A stretch of DNA of 18,475 bases from a virus (taxonomy: Duplodnaviria; Heunggongvirae; Uroviricota; Caudoviricetes): the IMG/VR virus record IMGVR_UViG_3300022916_000894, one strand, 5' to 3'. Position 1 is the stretch's first letter, and every line of letters starts with the position of its first letter. The position numbers were made by a program, and so were the translations under genes. The notes beneath the pieces are model-generated. The model had not been told where the DNA came from and ran no database searches. It saw nothing but the letters and a program-made list of their open reading frames with translations. Of the stretch, positions 1 to 10,748 are shown one piece after another.

Positions 1-1382
1 TCAATATACGTTTTCAATGTCCCATCGTATCCTTCTAATGCACCCGCTGGTGTCCTCAACACCATCTTTTCCAAATCTTCTTTTCCGCCCACATAATCTT
101 CTACTTTGCCAGTCAATATATTGTAATACAATGAGTTGATTGTCAAATCACGACGGAGTACATCGTCTTCTACATTGTTAGTTAAAACTATAGTTGGCTT
201 TCTGCTTTCTGAATCATATATTTCTTTTCTCATTGGCACAAATTCAATCTTTTGCCCAAAGATATTTATGCCGCCGACTTTTAATGTCTCTTCGCCTTCA
301 TCACCATCTTTATCTACTAGTTTTTCAAGACTGACTTCATGGGCATTCCCCACGCCGTCTATATTATGATCACGAGCATATTTCGACATATAGTTTGCCA
401 ACTGTATACCAGATATATTGGTAGCGATATCAATATCGTCACTCTCATATCCCATTAGCTTATCACGGACCCATCCGCCAGCAACTCTACATTCTGCATC
501 CATTCCTTTTTGTTTCAAATCTGCTATAACCATCTTTATGAAATTAAATATCTTTTGTTCTATTTCTGACAGTTGGATATTATCATTCAATTGAGCCATT
601 TTAATTGATTTGACAGTATGAGCATGTCTAACCATATTGCTCCAAAATTCCGTATTACGAAGTTTGAGCCATGTTTGCGGTCTATACTTATGTTCTCTGT
701 ATCTAAGATTTTTAGCTTGTTGTACACGATCCCATTTACGGTTAATAGCATCGGCAACTGCTTCCTCTTCAGTGTCGGCGTGTATAGTTTCGTCTTCAAT
801 GCCTAGCTGAGATATATTGACTATATACGCATTTAAAGCAGCAGCCAATTTGGGATTAGACAAACCTGGAACTTTAGTATCAACTATCATATCGCACTTA
901 ATATCTTCTTCCTTTAAAATGTTTTGTACATCTTCGATTGTTTTCTTGCTCAATTTAGATGAAATATAGATTCTTTTTAAAGAGTTATGCAATGAAGAAT
1001 AATATTCTCCTATAGCCAATCCGCCAAAGCAGCTATAATCATCTTTAGAAATATCTATACATAGAAGCAAGGGGTAATCTTGTAAATACTTTTGTGTAAA
1101 CTTATAAGAAAATAGCATTGGCTTAATAGACGGAATTCTGTCTTGTGACAACGCCAACCGCAATTCTACCACATCCAATGGGTAATATCCCTTGTTCGAT
1201 TCTATTTTGTTCTGAATCAAATCCTCTAATAGCATCTGAGGATTTTGAATCAATTCATATGATAAATAACGAAATGAATTAAGTAAATCGCACAAGCAGG
1301 CAGACTGATCATATTTAAATGAAGTATCACATAGAATTTCATTTATCTTTTCGTGAACAGATTTTGCTTGTGCGTCTCCCAT
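1..1382 (-). CDS. cca: Class II tRNA nucleotidyltransferase (CCA-adding enzyme / PolA superfamily) with a 261-aa N-terminal extension; 3' end runs off the window
   Basis: Manual translation: ATG at 1382 (GGAGG SD at 1389-1393) is open to base 1, which is why it is absent from the ORF track. The catalytic head starts near the in-frame Met at 599 and has RVAGGWVRDKLMGYESDDIDIA (motif A, DxD), IEFVPMRKEIY, DDVLRRDLTINSLYYN and VEDYVGGKEDL. No bacterial poly(A)-polymerase G[RK][RK]F signature was seen, so CCA is favoured, but specificity is not proven. Confidence 0.85.
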   Translation of the reverse strand, partial: MGDAQAKSVHEKINEILCDTSFKYDQSACLCDLLNSFRYLSYELIQNPQMLLEDLIQNKIESNKGYYPLDVVELRLALSQDRIPSIKPMLFSYKFTQKYLQDYPLLLCIDISKDDYSCFGGLAIGEYYSSLHNSLKRIYISSKLSKKTIEDVQNILKEEDIKCDMIVDTKVPGLSNPKLAAALNAYIVNISQLGIEDETIHADTEEEAVADAINRKWDRVQQAKNLRYREHKYRPQTWLKLRNTEFWSNMVRHAHTVKSIKMAQLNDNIQLSEIEQKIFNFIKMVIADLKQKGMDAECRVAGGWVRDKLMGYESDDIDIATNISGIQLANYMSKYARDHNIDGVGNAHEVSLEKLVDKDGDEGEETLKVGGINIFGQKIEFVPMRKEIYDSESRKPTIVLTNNVEDDVLRRDLTINSLYYNILTGKVEDYVGGKEDLEKMVLRTPAGALEGYDGTLKTYI

Positions 1383-1384
1383 TT

Positions 1385-1534
1385 TTAACCTCCGCAACCA
1401 CATCCGCCTCGTTTCTTACGCAGAGAAGGGAATGCATTTGCTGTCTTTTTAGTTGGCTTCCTTTGATCAATTCTTCTCTTTAAAGCCTGTTTCTTTATAT
1501 CTTTTTTTAACTGTTTCAAATTGAATTTAGCCAT
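1385..1534 (-). CDS. Small basic protein (49 aa) ending in GGCGCGG
   Basis: Manual translation MAKFNLKQLKKDIKKQALKRRIDQRKPTKKTANAFPSLRKKRGGCGCGG*. It exactly fills the gap between neighbouring minus-strand genes (3-nt and 2-nt gaps). It is below the ORF-track length cut-off. Confidence 0.7.
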   Translation of the reverse strand: MAKFNLKQLKKDIKKQALKRRIDQRKPTKKTANAFPSLRKKRGGCGCGG

Positions 1535-3703: not shown

Positions 3704-3709
3704 TATAAT
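3704..3709 (+). promoter_or_regulatory. Putative -10 box for the nif3-like gene
   Basis: Perfect TATAAT 17 nt before the ATG at 3727; no well-spaced -35. Confidence 0.5.
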
Positions 3710-3726
3710 TGTTTGAAGGAAGAACA

Positions 3727-4605
3727 ATGATGACACAGAATATGAGATTTCCACAAAGTCCACACTCTACTCAATATAAGGGGAATCCCCTTGTAAGAAC
3801 TCCAAAAGAGGGATTACCCTCTCAAATAGAGATTACTAATTACTTGGCAAAGATATATCCAGAAGAGTCGCCTGAGTGGAAACTTTTTTGTGACAGATGG
3901 GGATTATTTAGTGATACTCCTAATAAAATAGTTAAAAAAATTCTATTAGCTACCACACCTACTGGCCAAGTAAGGAATTACTTCATTGAAAACGATTACG
4001 ATCTCTTGGTGGGCCATCACGATTTCCTAGTAGATGTGCCACAAGTTATTATGCATATCGCAATGGATATCGAACCCAAAGGACATAATGGCTTCTTCGC
4101 CAAAAGATTTGGATTTACTCATACCAAACAAATTGCTGGAATATATTACCATGGTTTTTTGCCTAAACCCTTGTTGTTTAACGAGTTATCCGATTTATTG
4201 GAAAGAAGAGGTTTTAAAGTAGACGGTTGCATATGGAGTAAAGACCTAAACAATAAACCAATTCACGACGTTCTGTATTGTTCTGGAATGGGAGGATTGG
4301 CCTTGACTCATGCTGGTTGGGAGAATACTCCACTGCGTGTGAACGAATTTAAAGCTGATGTTTTTATTACAGGAGAATTAACATCAAATATCGATAATAC
4401 TCCTCATAGATTTGACCATATTATTGAACTTGGACATACTAATAGTGAAAAACCTTTGTTTCAATGGATAAGGAATTATCTCAAAAATAGATGGGAAAAT
4501 CTAGAAATTGATTTAGCAGATAACTCGATAGACTTTTTTGGCAGAGAGACATATAAAGCGAAGGAAAAGTTTATGTCTAGATTTAACTATGTCAACCGTT
4601 CATAA
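3727..4605 (+). CDS. NIF3/YbgI (DUF34) family metal-binding protein
   Basis: D.WGL...VKKILLA, LLVGHHD, HIAMD...GHN..FAKRFG, ADVFITGE and IELGHTNSE match NIF3 metal-binding motifs. Start placed at ATG 3727 (GAAGG SD) rather than the track's 3709. Confidence 0.8.
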   Translation: MMTQNMRFPQSPHSTQYKGNPLVRTPKEGLPSQIEITNYLAKIYPEESPEWKLFCDRWGLFSDTPNKIVKKILLATTPTGQVRNYFIENDYDLLVGHHDFLVDVPQVIMHIAMDIEPKGHNGFFAKRFGFTHTKQIAGIYYHGFLPKPLLFNELSDLLERRGFKVDGCIWSKDLNNKPIHDVLYCSGMGGLALTHAGWENTPLRVNEFKADVFITGELTSNIDNTPHRFDHIIELGHTNSEKPLFQWIRNYLKNRWENLEIDLADNSIDFFGRETYKAKEKFMSRFNYVNRS

Positions 4606-4645
4606 AAAAATTTTCACCGGCTACTTAAAAAAACGCACTTGGCGC

Positions 4646-4651
4646 TATAAT
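4646..4651 (+). promoter_or_regulatory. Putative -10 box driving the ncRNA cluster
   Basis: TATAAT ends 6 nt before G4657, the first paired base of Y-like RNA 1, which is a typical start-site spacing. Confidence 0.6.
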
Positions 4652-4656
4652 ATACT

Positions 4657-4727
4657 GAGGTCTGAAGTTTGATACCTTAACTTACATTAAATAAGGCCAA
4701 AAACGGTATTGACAACAGCTTGACTTC
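4657..4727 (+). ncRNA. Y-RNA-like RNA 1 (minimal, about 71 nt)
   Basis: GAGGTC/GACTTC terminal stem, bulged T4663, GA/TT, GTT/AAC and GATACC/GGTATT, then a loop starting TTAAC. Same architecture as the Ro60-binding helix of Y RNAs (GGUC[C]GA / UUGAC). It lies upstream of ro60, and G.U pairs indicate the plus strand. Confidence 0.8.
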
Positions 4728-4766
4728 ATTATTGAAAATAAAATACAGTTTTATATAGTCTTATCC

Positions 4767-4870
4767 GCTGGGAAATCGCTGAAAGGCGTATTTGCTACTT
4801 CGGATACGTTCGTCCCCCCGAAGGTCTTTCGAAAAGATAGCAAAAGTTGGTGCAAATCCAACCCCCAGCA
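4767..4870 (+). ncRNA. Non-canonical tRNA-like RNA with a 33-nt insert in a CU-UCG-GA (Arg-type) anticodon loop
   Basis: Acceptor GCTGGG(A)/(C)CCCAGC plus discriminator A4870. D-position hairpin CGCT-GAAA-GGCG. Stem TTTGCTA/TAGCAAA. T-arm GTTGG-TGCAAAT-CCAAC. No encoded CCA. Confidence 0.65.
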
Positions 4871-4874
4871 TTAA

Positions 4875-4936
4875 TGGTCTGAAGTTGATAGCTTAACCTA
4901 ACCTGATAACGATTGCTATCGACAACTACTCGACCA
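4875..4936 (+). ncRNA. Y-RNA-like RNA 2 (minimal, about 62 nt)
   Basis: TGGTC/GACCA, bulged T4880, GA/TC, AGTTG/CAACT, ATAGC/GCTAT; loop starts TTAAC. Confidence 0.8.
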
Positions 4937-4950
4937 AATTAGAATTAAAT

Positions 4951-5031
4951 ATGGGCTGAAGTTTATAGGTTAACTCTGATCGCGGCCTTCGCGGGCCGCA
5001 CCACCAATCCTATTTACAACAACTTGCCTAT
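4951..5031 (+). ncRNA. Y-RNA-like RNA 3 (about 81 nt) with a GC-rich internal hairpin
   Basis: ATGGGC/GCCTAT, bulged T4957, GA/TT, GTT/AAC, ATAGG/CCTAT. The loop has TTAAC, hairpin GCGGCC-TTCGCG-GGCCGC (4982-4999) and ACCACCA. Confidence 0.8.
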
Positions 5032-5071
5032 TTTTATTATATTATTTGAAAACTTCATAACGAGCATGTAT

Positions 5072-5213
5072 ACGGGCTGAAGCCAATAGGTTAACGATAT
5101 CATAAATCCGAGAACTGGGTTCGACTCCTAGCGGCCATATTTCAAGTTTTACCCTTTTATGGCTGTGGTGCAACGGTAGCACACGTAAAACGCCTATAGC
5201 AATCCTTGCCTGT
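5072..5213 (+). ncRNA. yrlA: YrlA-type Y RNA with a circularly permuted tRNA-like domain (about 142 nt)
   Basis: Ro stem ACGGGC/GCCTGT, bulged T5078, GA/TT, ATAGG/CCTAT. T-arm CTGGG-TTCGACT-CCTAG (5115-5131). Acceptor-like stem CGGCCATA/TATGGCTG (5132-5139/5158-5165) closed by a loop. D-arm GTGC-AACGGTA-GCAC (5168-5182). The T-arm, acceptor, D-arm order is the YrlA topology. Confidence 0.9.
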
Positions 5214-5221
5214 TACAATAT

Positions 5222-5374
5222 ATGCGACCAGAAACCCCTAAAGGCTATATTATTAATTATAAAATTGCTGACCACAACTGTAGGCAAATTAAAATGAAAG
5301 TTGGGAACAGGTGACAACCTGATCTGATTTATTGGATAAAAAGTGTATTAACGGCCCTGAACTTCTGGTCGTAT
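5222..5374 (+). ncRNA. Unclassified structured element (about 150 nt) closed by a 12-bp terminal stem
   Basis: ATGCGACCAGAA (5222-5233) pairs with TTCTGGTCGTAT (5363-5374). Inner pairings GGC/GCC, TATATT/AGTGTA and hairpin CAGGT-GACA-ACCTG (5308-5321). Followed by a T-run to 5382. Confidence 0.55.
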
Positions 5375-5411
5375 TTTTTTTTGCCACATCACGAAAATTT
5401 CCACTATCTCT

Positions 5412-5420
5412 TGCTATAAT
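5412..5420 (+). promoter_or_regulatory. Extended -10 promoter (TGnTATAAT) for ro60
   Basis: TGCTATAAT at 5412-5420, 53 nt before the ATG. Confidence 0.65.
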
Positions 5421-5433
5421 ACAATTGTGAGAA

Positions 5434-5452
5434 TTGACCCGAATGGGTCTGA
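5434..5452 (+). promoter_or_regulatory. Leader hairpin reproducing the Ro-binding bulged helix in permuted order (candidate autoregulatory site)
   Basis: TT-GACCC-GAAT-GGGTC-T-GA gives GACC/GGTC, a bulged T and GA/TT, 8 nt upstream of the SD. Confidence 0.55.
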
Positions 5453-5473
5453 GAAAAAGAAAGGGAGAAAATC

Positions 5474-7123
5474 ATGGCTAAGAACATCGCTCAAATTTCT
5501 GGAAAGTCAGTTAGAGGGAACGCACATCAAATGGTTCAGGACGAACCGAATCAGGTAAAGAATAACGCTGGTGGATTCGTCTACCAAGTAAGTGATATCA
5601 ATCGTCTTCGTAGGTTCCTGACACTTGGAACTACAAACGGAAGTTACTACGTTACGGAGCGTAAGCTTTCTCGTAATAACGCCGATTTCCTTATCAGCTT
5701 CTTAGGTAAGGATCATGTGGCAGTTATTGACGAAGTTGTTAAGATGAGTCACGAAGGTCGTATCGCCAAGAACGACACTGCTATTTTTGTATTGGCTCTT
5801 GCAGCAGTTCATGAAAATGAAGCTGTTCGTAAGTATGCTTTGGCACATCTGAATGCTGTATGTCGTATCGGTACTCATTTGTTCACTTTCGCTTCCTTCG
5901 TTAAGGAAATGAAGGTAGGTACTGGTTGGGGCCGTGGTCTGCGTAAGGCTTTCGCAAATTGGTATAACGACAAGAGCGCGAGTTCTGTTGCTTATCAGAT
6001 TTGCAAGTACCAGTCTCGTTCCGTAGAAGGCGAATTGCCTTGGAGTCACCGTGATATTCTGCGTAAGGCTCATGTAACTCCTGCAACGAAGGCGCACGAC
6101 TTGGCTTTCTGTTATGCCACAAAGGGAGTTGAAGGGTTTGATAAGAGTTTCGACAACCTAAACGATTATGAGGACTTGCGTTACATCTATGGTCACGAAT
6201 TGATTAAGGGTGCAGAAAATGCTAAGATCGCTATTAGCATCATCAAGGAATATAAGCTTTCTCGTGAAAGTATTCCTACGCAGTTCATGAAGGAAAAGGC
6301 AGTATTGGATGAACTAGTAAATCATATGCCTATGACTGCTACGATTCGTAGTCTTGGTCCTTTGACCGCTGCTGGTACTCTGGTTTCTATGGGTGACAAG
6401 ACTCGTTTAGTGGTTGACAGACTTACAGACGAGGAAAATCTAAAGACTGCTCGTGTGCATCCTATCGCACTGCTTGCGGCTTTGCGTACCTACGAAAAGG
6501 GACATGGTTTCCGTGGTAATTTGTCTTGGAATCCTATCTCTCAAGTTAAGGACGCTTTGGAAGATGCTTTCTACAAGAGTTTCAACTATGTTGAATCTAC
6601 TGGTGCTAACTACATGCTTGGTATTGATGTAAGTGGTTCTATGACTTGGAGTGACATCTGTGGAATTCCTAACTTGCTACCAAGCGAAGGTGCGGCAGCA
6701 ATGGCTATGACGATTGCTCGTTCTGAAAAGAACTATGAGATTCGTGGTTTCTGTCATGAACTAGTAGATTTGAAGATTACTGCAAGAGACAGTTTGAACA
6801 GCGCTCTTAACAAGACTAGAAACTTGAGTTTCGGTGGAACCGACTGTGCGTTGCCTATGATTTGGGCACAGAAGAATAAGGTTCCTGTAGACGCTTTCGT
6901 TGTTATCACTGATAACGAAACTTGGCGTGGTGATGTTAAGCCTGCTAAGGCGTTGCGGAACTATCGTCAGGCTATGGGTATTGGTTCTAAGTTGATCGTG
7001 ATCGGAATGACTGCTACTGAGTTCACGGTTGCAGACCCGAATGATGGCGGAATGGTCGACATTGCCGGGTTCGATGCCAACTGCCCACGAATCATTAGCG
7101 ACTTTGTTCAGGGAAACCTCTAA
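5474..7123 (+). CDS. rsr: Ro60 / TROVE-domain RNA-binding protein (Rsr) with C-terminal vWA domain
   Basis: NQVKNNAGGFVYQVSDINRLRRFLTLGT (TROVE start), RIGTHLFTF, GWGRGLRKA..WY, KYQSR...WSHRDILR.AH, vWA MIDAS GIDVSGSM, GGTDCALPM and FVVITDNETW. 549 aa; AAGGGAG SD. Confidence 0.97.
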   Translation: MAKNIAQISGKSVRGNAHQMVQDEPNQVKNNAGGFVYQVSDINRLRRFLTLGTTNGSYYVTERKLSRNNADFLISFLGKDHVAVIDEVVKMSHEGRIAKNDTAIFVLALAAVHENEAVRKYALAHLNAVCRIGTHLFTFASFVKEMKVGTGWGRGLRKAFANWYNDKSASSVAYQICKYQSRSVEGELPWSHRDILRKAHVTPATKAHDLAFCYATKGVEGFDKSFDNLNDYEDLRYIYGHELIKGAENAKIAISIIKEYKLSRESIPTQFMKEKAVLDELVNHMPMTATIRSLGPLTAAGTLVSMGDKTRLVVDRLTDEENLKTARVHPIALLAALRTYEKGHGFRGNLSWNPISQVKDALEDAFYKSFNYVESTGANYMLGIDVSGSMTWSDICGIPNLLPSEGAAAMAMTIARSEKNYEIRGFCHELVDLKITARDSLNSALNKTRNLSFGGTDCALPMIWAQKNKVPVDAFVVITDNETWRGDVKPAKALRNYRQAMGIGSKLIVIGMTATEFTVADPNDGGMVDIAGFDANCPRIISDFVQGNL

Positions 7124-7172: not shown

Positions 7173-7208
7173 AAAAGAAAAGGTGACTATGTTGCCTTTT
7201 CTTTTTTT
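7173..7208 (+). terminator. Intrinsic terminator after ro60
   Basis: AAAAGAAAAGGTGAC-TAT-GTTGCCTTTTCTTTT stem with plus-strand G.U pairs, ending in a T-run. It may be bidirectional. Confidence 0.7.
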
Positions 7209-9434: not shown

Positions 9435-9667
9435 TATATAAATTCGATACTACCTGATTCTAAATCTTTCTTTAATGTTTCAATTTCAAGTAATTCTTCA
9501 TCGCCGCAATCGGTTGAAATTACTCTACGCCATTCACAAGAACTGTCTACTACTTCTTCTACAACTTTCCAGATATGACCATCACAGTTATACTGAGTGC
9601 CTTTAGGAAACTCCGACTTCGGCCTCGTCTCTTTCACTTGTCCCGTTACTATTCTTTTCTTGAACAT
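9434..9667 (-). CDS. Hypothetical protein (77 aa)
   Basis: ORF track 9434..9694; ATG 9667 with GAGAGGG upstream is preferred. It overlaps the dnaJ tail. Confidence 0.65.
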   Translation of the reverse strand: MFKKRIVTGQVKETRPKSEFPKGTQYNCDGHIWKVVEEVVDSSCEWRRVISTDCGDEELLEIETLKKDLESGSIEFI

Positions 9668-10748
9668 TTCTAACCCTCTCAATGTATTCTTCAATCTTTT
9701 CTATTCTTTTATCGGCCTTTTTGTCCTCTATATTTCTAATTTTTTCAAATAAAGCTTTTTCTTTATCCGTCAAATTTTCTGGGACAATGATATTTAAACC
9801 CACTACCATATTGCCTTTTGCTGTTGCATGTCCTCGTATTGGCATACCATAATCAGATTTTTTAACCATAGTGCCAGCAACTGATCCGGCTGGTATTTCT
9901 ACCTTGATAATATTATCATAGACAGTTGGCAATTCTACTTCGCTGCCTAATACCGCTTGAGATATTGTGATTGGCAATTTAAGGAAAACATCGTCTCCAT
10001 ATCTTTCAAATATTTCATGAGGTTGCTCTACAGCTATAACATAGATATCCCCATTCGGTCCACCATTTTTTCCGCAATTTCCCTCGCCTTGCATAGCGAT
10101 AACTTGATTTTGATGGATACCTCTTGGTATCTTTACAGAGAACGTGCGTTCCTTTTCGACACTTGCGGTTCCTTTACATTCAGGACACACATCATCTTTA
10201 TCGATATATTTACCAGTCCCATTACATTTATAACAAATAGTCTCTCGTATCATCTGCATACCGTCCTTATGCGTAGATACTTCCCTTATTCGACCTTGAC
10301 CCCTGCAATCATTACATTCGTGCTTAGAAGCCCCTTCCTTAAGCCCAGGATGCTCTTTACAGACGGCACATTCCTCTTGACGAGTGACTGTAATATCTTT
10401 GATTAAATCCTTAGTGATTATCTCTTTATAAGTAAGAGGCATAGGGAATTTGATATGATTACCCTGCTGTGGAAAATCCATTGTACCTCCACCATATGCT
10501 CCTCGATGGAAATTCATGAATATATCATTAAGATTTACTCCGTTGGCATCACCAAGGTCATAATTGCGTCTTTTATCAGAATCAGATAAGACTTCGTATG
10601 CCTCTGTAATTTCTTTGAATTTTTCTTCTGAGCCATCTTCTTTTGATACATCAGGATGATATTGTTTAGCCAATTTTCTATAGGCCGACTTAATTTCGTC
10701 TCCTTCAGCATCTTTCTCAACACCTAAAATTGAATAATAGTCTTTCAT
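9603..10748 (-). CDS. dnaJ: DnaJ (Hsp40) type I co-chaperone
   Basis: J domain MKDYYSILGV...YRKLAKQYHPD...EAYEVLSD. Four CxxC repeats (CAVC, CNDCRGQG, CYKCNGTG, CPECKGT). C-terminal GGPNGDIYV...F.R.GDD..L...AVLG domain. Confidence 0.97.
   Translation of the reverse strand: MKDYYSILGVEKDAEGDEIKSAYRKLAKQYHPDVSKEDGSEEKFKEITEAYEVLSDSDKRRNYDLGDANGVNLNDIFMNFHRGAYGGGTMDFPQQGNHIKFPMPLTYKEIITKDLIKDITVTRQEECAVCKEHPGLKEGASKHECNDCRGQGRIREVSTHKDGMQMIRETICYKCNGTGKYIDKDDVCPECKGTASVEKERTFSVKIPRGIHQNQVIAMQGEGNCGKNGGPNGDIYVIAVEQPHEIFERYGDDVFLKLPITISQAVLGSEVELPTVYDNIIKVEIPAGSVAGTMVKKSDYGMPIRGHATAKGNMVVGLNIIVPENLTDKEKALFEKIRNIEDKKADKRIEKIEEYIERVRNVQEKNSNGTSERDEAEVGVS

What the first reader, a model, noticed from the sequence alone, without database searches (positions are those of the whole stretch)
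4646..7123. Ro60 locus with a tandem array of four Y-RNA paralogues plus two other structured RNAs in a large-phage-like genome
Seen in sequence: GG(T/G)CTGAAG at 4659, 4876, 4953 and 5074 each pairs with a downstream partner. There are compensatory changes between copies (GGTC/GAC(T/C) vs GGGC/GCCT; GTT/AAC vs GC/GC; ATACC/GGTAT, ATAGC/GCTAT, ATAGG/CCTAT). All share a bulged U, a GA/UY pair and an invariant TTAAC after the upper stem. AU-rich spacers separate the units, with one -10 box at the start and a T-run at the end. Established: Ro60 binds a bulged helix in Y RNAs, and bacterial rsr loci typically have one or two Y RNAs (YrlA/YrlB, Yrn1/Yrn2) that tether Ro to partners such as PNPase. 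Inference: this is a polycistronic, processed set of modular adaptors, with one conserved Ro handle and different effector loops, encoded by a virus. It may serve RNA quality control or counter host tRNA-targeting defence. I do not know of a described array of this size, but cannot check novelty here.
Basis: partly seen in the sequence, partly recalled or inferred. Interest (0 to 1): 0.9.

Follow-up and report, generated by a model that had tools for sequence, protein, structure and literature searches.

The report
Phage Ro60 gene with Y-RNA array
A large marine phage carries a Ro60 RNA-binding protein gene preceded by four small "Y RNA" partner genes in a row; the locus is real, but such multi-copy arrays turn out to be common next to Ro60 genes in viruses and bacteria, so it extends a known system.

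Summary
The motif GGKCTGAAG occurs exactly four times, at 4659, 4876, 4953 and 5074. All four are on the + strand, inside an 869-nt ORF-free gap, and the motif occurs nowhere else in the 188-kb virus record.

Each copy begins a stem with a bulged U, a GA/UY step, an asymmetric loop and an upper stem capped by TTAAC. ORF 5474-7123 is a Ro60 protein (TROVE + vWA_Ro60).

A covariance model built from these units and their close relatives behaved as follows:
- 176 matches (175 on the Ro60 strand) in 85 mostly viral Ro60 loci.
- 131 matches, all on the Ro60 strand, in 80 bacterial Ro60 loci.
- No matches in 696 kb of control viral DNA.
- Strong covariation.

Unit 4 has the YrlA layout (T arm, acceptor-like hairpin, D arm). 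The other two RNAs are a tRNA-like cloverleaf that is not a callable tRNA, and a terminal element conserved with compensatory changes in two relatives. The ro60 leader carries a permuted copy of the Ro helix, which recurs in other loci.

Novelty is moderate. Phage Ro60/Y RNA loci are published. Arrays of 3-8 units occur in about a third of the loci with a match. Expression and Ro60 binding remain untested.

The parts
4646..4651 (+). -10 box (TATAAT) in front of the RNA cluster; the predicted start falls at the 5' end of unit 1
   Evidence: Read directly. The -35 region is weak, so one search did not list the site. The close relatives L003, L004 and L005 have a TATAAT at the same place before their first unit.
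4656..4728 (+). Y-like RNA 1 (73 nt), minimal stem-bulge type
   Evidence: Covariance model R1 gives 61.8 bits and R2 gives 48.0 bits, E 3e-10.
4767..4870 (+). tRNA-like cloverleaf RNA with a 53-nt anticodon-type arm; its 3' end lies 3 nt before unit 2
   Evidence: The fold gives -37.7 kcal/mol, z = -3.6. ARAGORN does not call it and no Rfam tRNA match appeared. Real tRNAs or tRNA-like elements sit between units in L130, L159, L180, L192 and L005, and a tRNA follows a unit in L127.
4873..4938 (+). Y-like RNA 2 (66 nt)
   Evidence: R1 63.9 bits and R2 57.1 bits. Rfam RF01656 scores 29.3 bits, E 0.0013, below the gathering score. Fold z = -4.4.
4951..5031 (+). Y-like RNA 3 (81 nt) with a GC-rich hairpin in its loop
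   Evidence: R1 63.5 bits and R2 53.6 bits. Rfam RF01656 scores 33.0 bits, E 0.00013, below the gathering score.
5072..5213 (+). Y RNA 4 (142 nt), YrlA layout: Ro stem enclosing a T arm, an acceptor-like hairpin and a D arm
   Evidence: R1 29.5 bits and R2 35.3 bits, E 1e-6. The T arm is CUGGG-UUCGACU-CCUAG and the D arm is GUGC-AACGGUA-GCAC. The Rfam YrlA model RF02553 gave no match at E up to 10.
5224..5372 (+). Terminal structured RNA: an 11-bp closing stem, conserved internal loops CCCCUAAA and CUGAAC, a 4-bp inner stem and a variable apical part
   Evidence: RNAalifold with L003 and L004 predicts 15 pairs, 7 with both sides changed. No Rfam match.
5374..5382 (+). Run of nine T directly after the closing stem: likely end of the RNA cluster transcript
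   Evidence: The same arrangement is seen in L003 and L004.
5415..5420 (+). -10 box of a separate ro60 promoter (CTTGCTATAAT)
   Evidence: CTTGCTATAAT also precedes the first unit in L004, and TTGCTATAAT does so in L003.
5434..5452 (+). Leader hairpin that carries both strands of the Ro helix in swapped order (UU-GACCC-GAAU-GGGUC-U-GA); candidate site for Ro60 control of its own mRNA
   Evidence: The same design lies within 90 nt upstream of the Ro60 start in 11 of 75 mostly viral loci (shuffles 1.3%) and in 10 of 78 bacterial loci (shuffles 2.8%). The stems differ by compensatory changes.
5474..7123 (+). Ro60 protein gene (549 aa)
   Evidence: Pfam vWA_Ro60 E 1.2e-63 and TROVE E 1.3e-33. PDB matches: Xenopus Ro60 1YVP E 8.8e-126, human RO60 4e-125, D. 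radiodurans Rsr 4.5e-107.
7173..7205 (+). Intrinsic terminator after ro60 (15-bp stem followed by T-rich tail)

Best explanation
Region 4646-5382 is a cluster of non-coding RNA genes that serves the phage's own Ro60 protein.

Four RNAs share one Ro60-binding handle. The handle consists of a lower stem, a single bulged U, a G-U (G-C in unit 2) and an A-U pair, a 1-nt versus 6-nt asymmetric loop, and an upper stem of about 9 bp capped by UUAAC. Their loops differ. Three are minimal hairpin-type Y RNAs. The fourth carries a tRNA-like domain of the YrlA type.

Inferred mechanism: Ro60 binds each handle on its outer surface. This stabilises the RNA. The different loops recruit or exclude different partners or substrates, following the 'gate and tether' model established for D. 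radiodurans Ro60, Y RNA and PNPase.

The cluster probably starts at the TATAAT at 4646 and ends at the T-run after the terminal structured RNA. The units are probably released by host RNases. The tRNA-like RNA, whose 3' end lies 3 nt before unit 2, may act as an RNase P/Z punctuation mark. ro60 has its own promoter. Its leader mimics the Ro handle, so excess free Ro60 may repress its own translation.

Shown here: the sequence family, its structure and covariation, its exclusive association with Ro60 genes and their strand, the YrlA layout, and the recurrence of the leader mimic. Inferred: binding, processing, partner choice and autoregulation.
For: - The motif occurs four times in 420 nt and nowhere else in 188 kb. 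The model finds no place in the record outside the array, though the fourth unit matched only weakly in that pre-filtered search (E 0.29).
- The ORF is Ro60.
- The eleven seed units have 12 of 19 pairs with double changes.
- Model R1 gave 80 matches, all on the Ro60 strand.
- Model R2 gave 176 matches, 175 on the Ro60 strand, in 540 kb of Ro60 loci. It gave none at E up to 1 in 696 kb of control viral contigs.
- In 80 bacterial loci that were not used to build the model, R2 gave 131 matches, all on the Ro60 strand, with 95.3% paired against 76.0%.
- The model also finds 2 units in Streptomyces phage Genie2 and 3 in mycobacteriophage Bxz1. Mycobacteriophages are a group with published YrlA RNAs (PMC4201824).
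- Rfam's nematode stem-bulge RNA model (a Y RNA homologue) matches units 2 and 3 at E 1e-3 to 1e-4. It matches a related viral unit at its gathering score.
- Published work: Ro60 of Thermus phage phiLo binds two Y-like RNAs encoded upstream of its gene (PMC12135203). M. smegmatis YrlA and YrlB are processed from one precursor upstream of rsr (PMC4201824).
Against: - No RNA data exist. No listed RNA run holds the region, so discrete products and processing are unproven.
- The bulged nucleotide is U, not the C found in 119 of 134 viral and 128 of 131 bacterial units and in animal Y RNAs. The literal GNCGAA motif is therefore not met.
- The Rfam YrlA model does not match unit 4.
- Promoter-like sites inside the cluster mean it may not be one transcript.
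- Alignments made by the model lean towards its structure.
- No RtcB, and only a weak RNA-ligase match, was found in the 188-kb fragment. A repair or counter-defence role has no local support beyond a nearby CCA-adding-type enzyme.
Confidence: 0.85

Rival explanations
1. The units are not separate small RNAs. They are repeated Ro60-binding sites within one long regulatory transcript, acting as a sponge or a long leader that titrates Ro60 and controls read-through into ro60.
For: In many related loci the last unit ends 25-130 nt before the Ro60 start, and no separate terminator or promoter was looked for there. The ro60 leader itself carries a Ro-site mimic. Expression data are lacking.
Against: In this window a closing stem plus nine T, followed by a new -10 box, separates the cluster from ro60. 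In M. smegmatis two such RNAs are cut from one precursor and bound as separate RNAs (PMC4201824). True tRNA genes are interleaved with units in relatives, which implies processing.
Confidence: 0.08
2. The cluster is chiefly a set of tRNA mimics or decoys aimed at host tRNA-cleaving defences or tRNA enzymes, and Ro60 is only a stabilising chaperone.
For: Unit 4 has T and D arms. 4767-4870 is cloverleaf-like. A CCA-adding-type nucleotidyltransferase lies 3 kb away. Ro60 loci in relatives sit inside tRNA gene clusters.
Against: Three of the four units have no tRNA-like part. 91 of the 134 distinct units among the best matches in the mostly viral Ro60 loci are 90 nt or shorter. The conserved and covarying part is the Ro handle, not the tRNA-like part. 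No RtcB was found in the fragment.
Confidence: 0.05
3. The four copies are recent local duplications without function, or chance repeats.
For: The units are tandem and share long identical stretches. Units 3 and 4 have nearly the same handle.
Against: The stems differ by compensatory changes. The family is conserved across viral and bacterial phyla and is always on the Ro60 strand. Control DNA gave no match. The sequence is identical in at least four other seawater metagenome studies.
Confidence: 0.02

Closest known systems
Bacterial and phage YrlA/YrlB Y RNAs (Chen et al. 2014, PMC4201824; Rfam RF02553)
   Same: They are encoded within a few kb of Ro60 on the same strand. They have a 5'/3' stem carrying the Ro handle. 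One RNA per locus has a T arm, an acceptor-like hairpin and a D arm, and at least one other is a plain hairpin. In M. smegmatis both are cut from one precursor upstream of rsr.
   Different: This locus has four units rather than the 'at least two' shown experimentally. Both strands of the handle and a UUAUC-type cap are conserved, whereas only the 5' strand is recognisable in the Salmonella and M. smegmatis RNAs. The bulge is U, so GNCGAA is not literally present. The Rfam YrlA model does not match unit 4. The cluster has its own promoter and terminator and holds two extra structured RNAs.
Thermus phage phiLo Ro60 with Yrl1 and Yrl2 (PMC12135203)
   Same: A phage Ro60 gene has Y-like RNAs directly upstream. 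Binding to the phage Ro60 and a complex with host PNPase were shown there.
   Different: phiLo has two RNAs, identified by a CGAA motif. Our protein search of the phage collection did not list phiLo, so the proteins are distant. phiLo was not examined with our model.
Animal Y RNAs and nematode stem-bulge RNAs (Rfam RF01656; review PMC4726728)
   Same: They share the same module: lower stem, single bulged pyrimidine, GA step, asymmetric loop, upper stem and a UUAUC-type motif. Units 2 and 3 score 29-33 bits against RF01656, and a related viral unit scores 38.1 bits against a gathering score of 38. The phage Ro60 scores higher against Xenopus and human Ro60 than against D. radiodurans Rsr.
   Different: The animal RNAs are dispersed RNA polymerase III genes, not a cluster beside the Ro60 gene. 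Their UUAUC motif is tied to DNA replication activity. Most C. elegans stem-bulge RNAs were not found bound to the worm Ro protein. The review calls bacterial Y RNAs not homologous with vertebrate Y RNAs.
Deinococcus radiodurans Yrn1/Yrn2 with Rsr and PNPase
   Same: Several small RNAs are encoded upstream of rsr. Both strands of the Ro helix are retained. This is the best-studied 'gate and tether' mechanism.
   Different: The arrangement of the tRNA-like arms differs. No PNPase link could be tested here.

Membership tests
Y RNA (Ro60-associated non-coding RNA, bacterial/phage class) | Encoded within about 4 kb of a Ro60 gene, on the same strand | tested here: met
   The units lie 260-820 nt upstream of ro60 on the + strand. 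175 of 176 family matches in mostly viral Ro60 loci and 131 of 131 bacterial matches are on the Ro60 strand.
Y RNA (Ro60-associated non-coding RNA, bacterial/phage class) | 5' and 3' ends pair into a long stem with a conserved bulged helix, supported by covariation | tested here: met
   Cells paired are 90-95%, against 67-76% in shuffles. 13-15 of 17 pairs show double changes.
Y RNA (Ro60-associated non-coding RNA, bacterial/phage class) | Literal handle motif GNCGAAN0-1G (bacteria) or GGUCCGA (animals), that is, a bulged C before GAA | tested here: not met
   The window has GKC-U-GAAG, with a U bulge in all four units. Only 15 of 134 viral units have U, and the rest have C. Bacterial units have C in 128 of 131.
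Y RNA (Ro60-associated non-coding RNA, bacterial/phage class) | Physically bound and stabilised by Ro60; exists as a discrete RNA of about 60-150 nt | not testable with these tools
   No listed RNA run holds the region.
YrlA (Rfam RF02553) | Score at or above the family's gathering score (69 bits) | tested here: not met
   No RF02553 match at E up to 10 in 4400-5600. A related viral unit reaches 40 bits.
YrlA (Rfam RF02553) | Loop holds a T arm, then an acceptor-like hairpin, then a D arm (permuted tRNA body) | tested here: met
   Unit 4 has CUGGG-UUCGACU-CCUAG, then an 8-bp hairpin, then GUGC-AACGGUA-GCAC, in that order.
Nematode stem-bulge RNA (Rfam RF01656) | Score at or above the gathering score (38 bits) | tested here: not met
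   Unit 3 scores 33.0 bits and unit 2 scores 29.3 bits. The resemblance is in the module, not in membership.
tRNA (for 4767-4870) | Recognised by ARAGORN or the Rfam tRNA model; canonical D and T loops | tested here: not met
   No call by ARAGORN, with or without intron search, and no Rfam tRNA match. With 4804-4836 removed, it is called tRNA-Arg(tcg) only at a lowered threshold. The D loop lacks GG and the T loop reads UGCAAAU.
Ro60 protein | TROVE (HEAT-repeat ring) domain followed by the Ro60-type vWA domain | tested here: met
   Both are above the Pfam cut-offs. Full-length matches to solved Ro60 structures.

The most novel reading that the evidence does not exclude
Three linked ideas make up the most novel reading.
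1. The handle found here (bulged helix plus UUAUC-type cap, both strands conserved) is one homologous module shared by phage, bacterial and animal Y RNAs and nematode stem-bulge RNAs. This runs against the published view that bacterial Y RNAs are unrelated to the animal ones.
2. Genomes expand the module into arrays of up to eight adaptors that aim one Ro60 at different partners.
3. Ro60 measures its own free pool through a permuted copy of the handle in its mRNA leader.

Natural circular permutations of the module also exist. Examples are the leader hairpin and the tRNA bodies in L180 and L192, which carry the handle in place of the anticodon arm.
Probability: 0.3. Interest if true: 0.7.

Novelty: new variant of a known kind. 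Interest (0 to 1): 0.55.

Why it matters
Ro60 and Y RNAs are conserved from bacteria to humans and are a major lupus and Sjogren autoantigen system, yet the function of Y RNAs is still poorly defined.

This locus and its relatives give three useful things:
- A specific model of the Ro handle. It finds 1-8 units per locus in viruses and bacteria and none in control DNA, so Y RNA genes can now be annotated widely.
- Sets of natural paralogues with one handle and different loops. These suit tests of the idea that loops choose partners.
- A testable candidate for autogenous control of Ro60 synthesis.

The sequence-level likeness of these phage and bacterial units to animal Y RNAs, including the UUAUC motif, bears on the origin of the animal RNAs. 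For this window alone the result is an extension of a published system, not a new one.

Tried and rejected
- Rfam at gathering thresholds gave no match in the window.
- ARAGORN found no tRNA in the window and only one tRNA in the 188-kb record.
- Two pattern scans of IMG/VR returned mostly chance hits. One used CTGAAG..TTAAC..ACAAC. The other used the terminal-element loops CCCCTAAAG..TGAACT. None of the second set had a convincing element in context. The first set of loci was reused as a negative control.
- The closest Ro60 relative (81% identity) has the same NIF3, 887-nt gap, Ro60 order, but its DNA could not be fetched. Another relative also had no DNA.
- Contigs from four seawater runs were laid on the region and showed no differences at all, so there was no population-level covariation to use.
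- Two searches for RNA runs found none that hold the region.
- Reading 4767-4870 as an interrupted tRNA-Arg was considered but not adopted. Even the shortened form is called only at a lowered ARAGORN threshold.
- No permuted Ro handle could be recognised in the long arm of that RNA by eye.
- CTTGCTATAAT as a genome-wide promoter motif was rejected. TTGCTATAAT occurs only three times in 188 kb.
- RtcB and T4-type RNA ligase searches in the record were negative, and RNA_ligase (PF09414) gave only a match below its cut-off. The control for PF09511 also failed, so that answer is void.
- The Annual Review on bacterial Ro60 (PMC10870794) and the supplementary tables of Chen et al. 2014 were not available. 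I could therefore not check how many multi-copy loci they list.
Full report
**What is there**

The window comes from an IMG/VR virus record of 188,075 bases with 36% G+C. CheckV rates it 38% complete. It carries phage genes such as a head maturation protease, a clamp loader and a Holliday junction resolvase.

ORF 5474-7123 (+) encodes a 549-aa Ro60. It matches vWA_Ro60 at E 1.2e-63 and TROVE at E 1.3e-33. It gives full-length matches to Xenopus Ro60 (E 8.8e-126), human RO60 (E 4e-125) and D. radiodurans Rsr (E 4.5e-107).

Between the NIF3-family gene that ends at 4605 and ro60 lies an 869-nt gap with no ORF of 50 aa or more on either strand.

**The repeated units**

GGKCTGAAG occurs exactly at 4659, 4876, 4953 and 5074, all on the + strand. 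It occurs nowhere else in the 188-kb record.

Each copy opens a stem whose partner lies 60-140 nt downstream. The units are 4656-4728, 4873-4938, 4951-5031 and 5072-5213.

The common design, from the base upward:
- a lower stem of 5-7 bp;
- one bulged U;
- a G-U or G-C pair plus an A-U pair;
- one unpaired A opposite about six unpaired bases (AACNNC type);
- an upper stem of about 9 bp;
- the cap UUAAC.

The lower stems read GGUC/GACY against GGGC/GCCU. The upper-stem tips read AUACC/GGUAU, AUAGC/GCUAU and AUAGG/CCUAU.

Unit 4 encloses a T arm (loop UUCGACU), an 8-bp hairpin and a D arm (loop AACGGUA), in that order. This is the published YrlA layout (PMC4201824).

**Is it a real family?**

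Close relatives of the Ro60 protein were fetched with their flanks: L003 (58% identity), L004 (55%) and L005 (53%). They have 4, 3 and 2 such units upstream of ro60. A GC-rich virus with a 40%-identical Ro60 (L002) has six units by eye.

From eleven short units I built a covariance model, R1. On 85 Ro60 loci (the window, four fetched relatives and 80 IMG/VR viral loci; 540 kb) it gave 80 matches at E up to 1, every one on the Ro60 strand.

A second-round model, R2, gave 176 matches at E up to 0.1, with 175 on the Ro60 strand. It gave no match at E up to 1 in 696 kb of unrelated viral contigs. In the window's own record it matched only in this array, the fourth unit only weakly and in part in that pre-filtered search (E 0.29).

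Covariation is strong:
15 of 17 pairs show double changes.
- In 80 bacterial Ro60 loci that played no part in building the model, R2 found 131 matches, all on the Ro60 strand. There 95.3% of cells pair, against 76.0% in shuffles.

Because these alignments are fitted to the model, the percentages lean upward. The strand bias and the empty control do not depend on that.

**Link to known Y RNAs**

- The same model finds two units upstream of Ro60 in Streptomyces phage Genie2 and three in mycobacteriophage Bxz1. Mycobacteriophages are among the phages in which YrlA RNAs were reported (PMC4201824).
- The Rfam model of nematode stem-bulge RNAs, which are Y RNA homologues, matches units 3 and 2 at 33.0 and 29.3 bits (gathering score 38; E 1e-4 and 1e-3).
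- That model matches a related viral unit at 38.1 bits. The Rfam YrlA model matches another viral unit at 40 bits, against a gathering score of 69.
- The family consensus (GGGC-C-GAAG ... GG-UUAUC ... CAAnAACUUGCCC) is close to the vertebrate handle GGUCCGA/UUGACC.
- UUA is invariant, and UUAUC is the majority form. UUAAC, as in the window, accounts for 19 of 134 units.
- The window's U bulge is a minority state. It occurs in 15 of 134 viral units and in none of the bacterial units.

A review states that bacterial Y RNAs are not homologous with vertebrate Y RNAs, and that UUAUC is a motif of vertebrate and nematode RNAs (PMC4726728). Chen et al. note that only the 5' strand of the handle is recognisable in the Salmonella and M. 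smegmatis RNAs (PMC4201824). This family is therefore closer to the animal RNAs than what those papers describe.

**How unusual are four units?**

Not very.

| Set | Loci counted | Units per locus (units: number of loci) |
|---|---|---|
| Best 150 matches, 58 non-redundant loci (54 IMG/VR viral plus the window, L003, L004 and L005) | 58 | 1: 12, 2: 26, 3: 10, 4: 8, 5: 1, 8: 1 |
| Bacterial loci with a match | 62 of 80 | 1: 22, 2: 21, 3: 12, 4: 4, 5: 3 |

The eight-unit locus is L186, where the spacers are 10-26 nt.

The literature shows at least two Y RNAs in each of three bacteria, 355 predicted YrlA RNAs in 276 genomes, and two in phage phiLo (PMC4201824, PMC12135203). I could not read the supplementary tables or the 2020 Annual Review. 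I found no description of arrays of this kind in the searchable library.

**The two other RNAs**

*The tRNA-like RNA, 4767-4870.* It folds as a cloverleaf (z = -3.6) with these parts:
- a 6-bp acceptor-type stem;
- a small D-type arm without GG;
- a 53-nt anticodon-type arm;
- a T-type arm with loop UGCAAAU.

ARAGORN and Rfam do not call it a tRNA. With 33 nt removed it is called tRNA-Arg(tcg), but only at a lowered threshold.

Its 3' end lies 3 nt before unit 2. In relatives, true tRNA genes lie in or beside the arrays. L130 and L159 each have a tRNA-Pro between two units, 1-8 nt from its neighbours. L127 has a tRNA-Ile 6 nt after a unit.

L180 and L192 have, in a gap of 143-146 nt between two units, about the size of the window's gap, a tRNA body with an encoded CCA. 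Its anticodon arm is replaced by a permuted Ro handle.

I read the window's element as a tRNA-derived punctuation or partner RNA. Its function is open.

*The terminal RNA, 5224-5372.* It is conserved in L003 and L004 only. It has an 11-bp closing stem and a 4-bp inner stem, with 7 pairs changed on both sides. The internal loops CCCCUAAA and (C/A)UGAAC are conserved. A T-run follows the closing stem directly. It has no Rfam match, and I found no further members.

**The leader**

After a separate -10 box (5415-5420), the ro60 leader forms UU-GACCC-GAAU-GGGUC-U-GA (5434-5452). This is the lower stem, the bulge and the GA/UU step of the handle, with the two strands in swapped order and closed by a tetraloop. 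It lies about 10 nt before the ribosome-binding site.

The same design lies within 90 nt upstream of the Ro60 start in:
- 11 of 75 mostly viral loci (shuffles 1.3%; reverse complement 2 of 75);
- 10 of 78 bacterial loci (shuffles 2.8%; reverse complement 5 of 78).

The stems differ by compensatory changes. Examples are UUGCUCAUG..CAUGAGC-C-GAA and UUGCCCC..GGGGC-C-GAAAG. It is not shown.

**What could not be shown**

- The sequence is present in seawater metagenomes of 14 studies at a word share of 0.2 or more (10 beyond the four runs that may be the window's own source). In the four runs I laid, from four of those ten studies, the contigs were 100% identical. No listed RNA run holds it.
- Expression, processing, Ro60 binding and partners are therefore inferred from the family and from published systems.
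- A role against tRNA-targeting defence has little local support. A CCA-adding-type enzyme lies nearby. There is no RtcB and only a weak ligase match in the fragment.

**Verdict**

The interpretation as a Ro60 locus with several Y RNA paralogues is well supported. The claim of exceptional array size is not supported, because such arrays are common though little described.

This is a new variant of a known kind. The comparative results have some wider value:
- a specific model of the handle;
- arrays of up to eight units;
- the conserved UUAUC cap;
- the permuted handle in mRNA leaders and in tRNA bodies.

Noticed in passing
L186:1634-2437: Eight tandem Y-like units with 10-26 nt spacers directly upstream of a viral Ro60 gene. 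This is the largest array seen. L188 has five units and L182 up to seven at looser thresholds.
   Followed up: partly
L180:2034-2179 and L192:2115-2257: A tRNA body (7-bp acceptor stem, D arm, T arm, encoded CCA) whose anticodon arm is replaced by a Ro handle in swapped strand order (UU-ACCCG-CUUG-CGGGU-C-GA ... GGGUUAUCC). It looks like a natural circular permutation of YrlA.
   Followed up: partly
L130:1190-6558; L159:2242-2316; L127:2322-2394: Viral Ro60 genes sit inside same-strand tRNA gene clusters; L130 has 15 tRNAs. True tRNAs are interleaved with Y-like units at spacings of 1-8 nt, which suggests co-transcription and tRNA-type processing.
   Followed up: partly
L333:2436, L345:2445, L346:2470, L360:2439, L375:2403, L397:2206: Bacterial Ro60 leaders (Armatimonadota, Chloroflexia, Gemmatimonadaceae) carry UUGCCC(C)-loop-(G)GGGC-C-GAAAG. 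This is the permuted Ro handle just upstream of the start codon.
   Followed up: partly
L141:2154-2227: A viral Y-like unit scores 38.1 bits against Rfam's nematode stem-bulge RNA family RF01656, reaching its gathering score of 38.
   Followed up: no
window 3-1403 (-): A CCA-adding/poly(A)-polymerase head domain occupies only residues 305-450 of a protein of at least 466 aa. About 300 N-terminal residues have no Pfam match.
   Followed up: no
window 9603-10748 (-): A full-length DnaJ (J domain, zinc-finger domain and C-terminal domain) is encoded by the phage.
   Followed up: no
window 3709-4605 (+): A NIF3/DUF34-family gene lies directly upstream of the RNA cluster. The same NIF3, gap of about 887 nt, Ro60 order is kept in the contig of the 81%-identical Ro60 relative.
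   Followed up: no
I saw it in the sequence but did not test it.
   Followed up: no
L332:2005-3123: A gene with a faint LAGLIDADG homing-endonuclease hit lies directly downstream of a related Ro60 gene.
   Followed up: no
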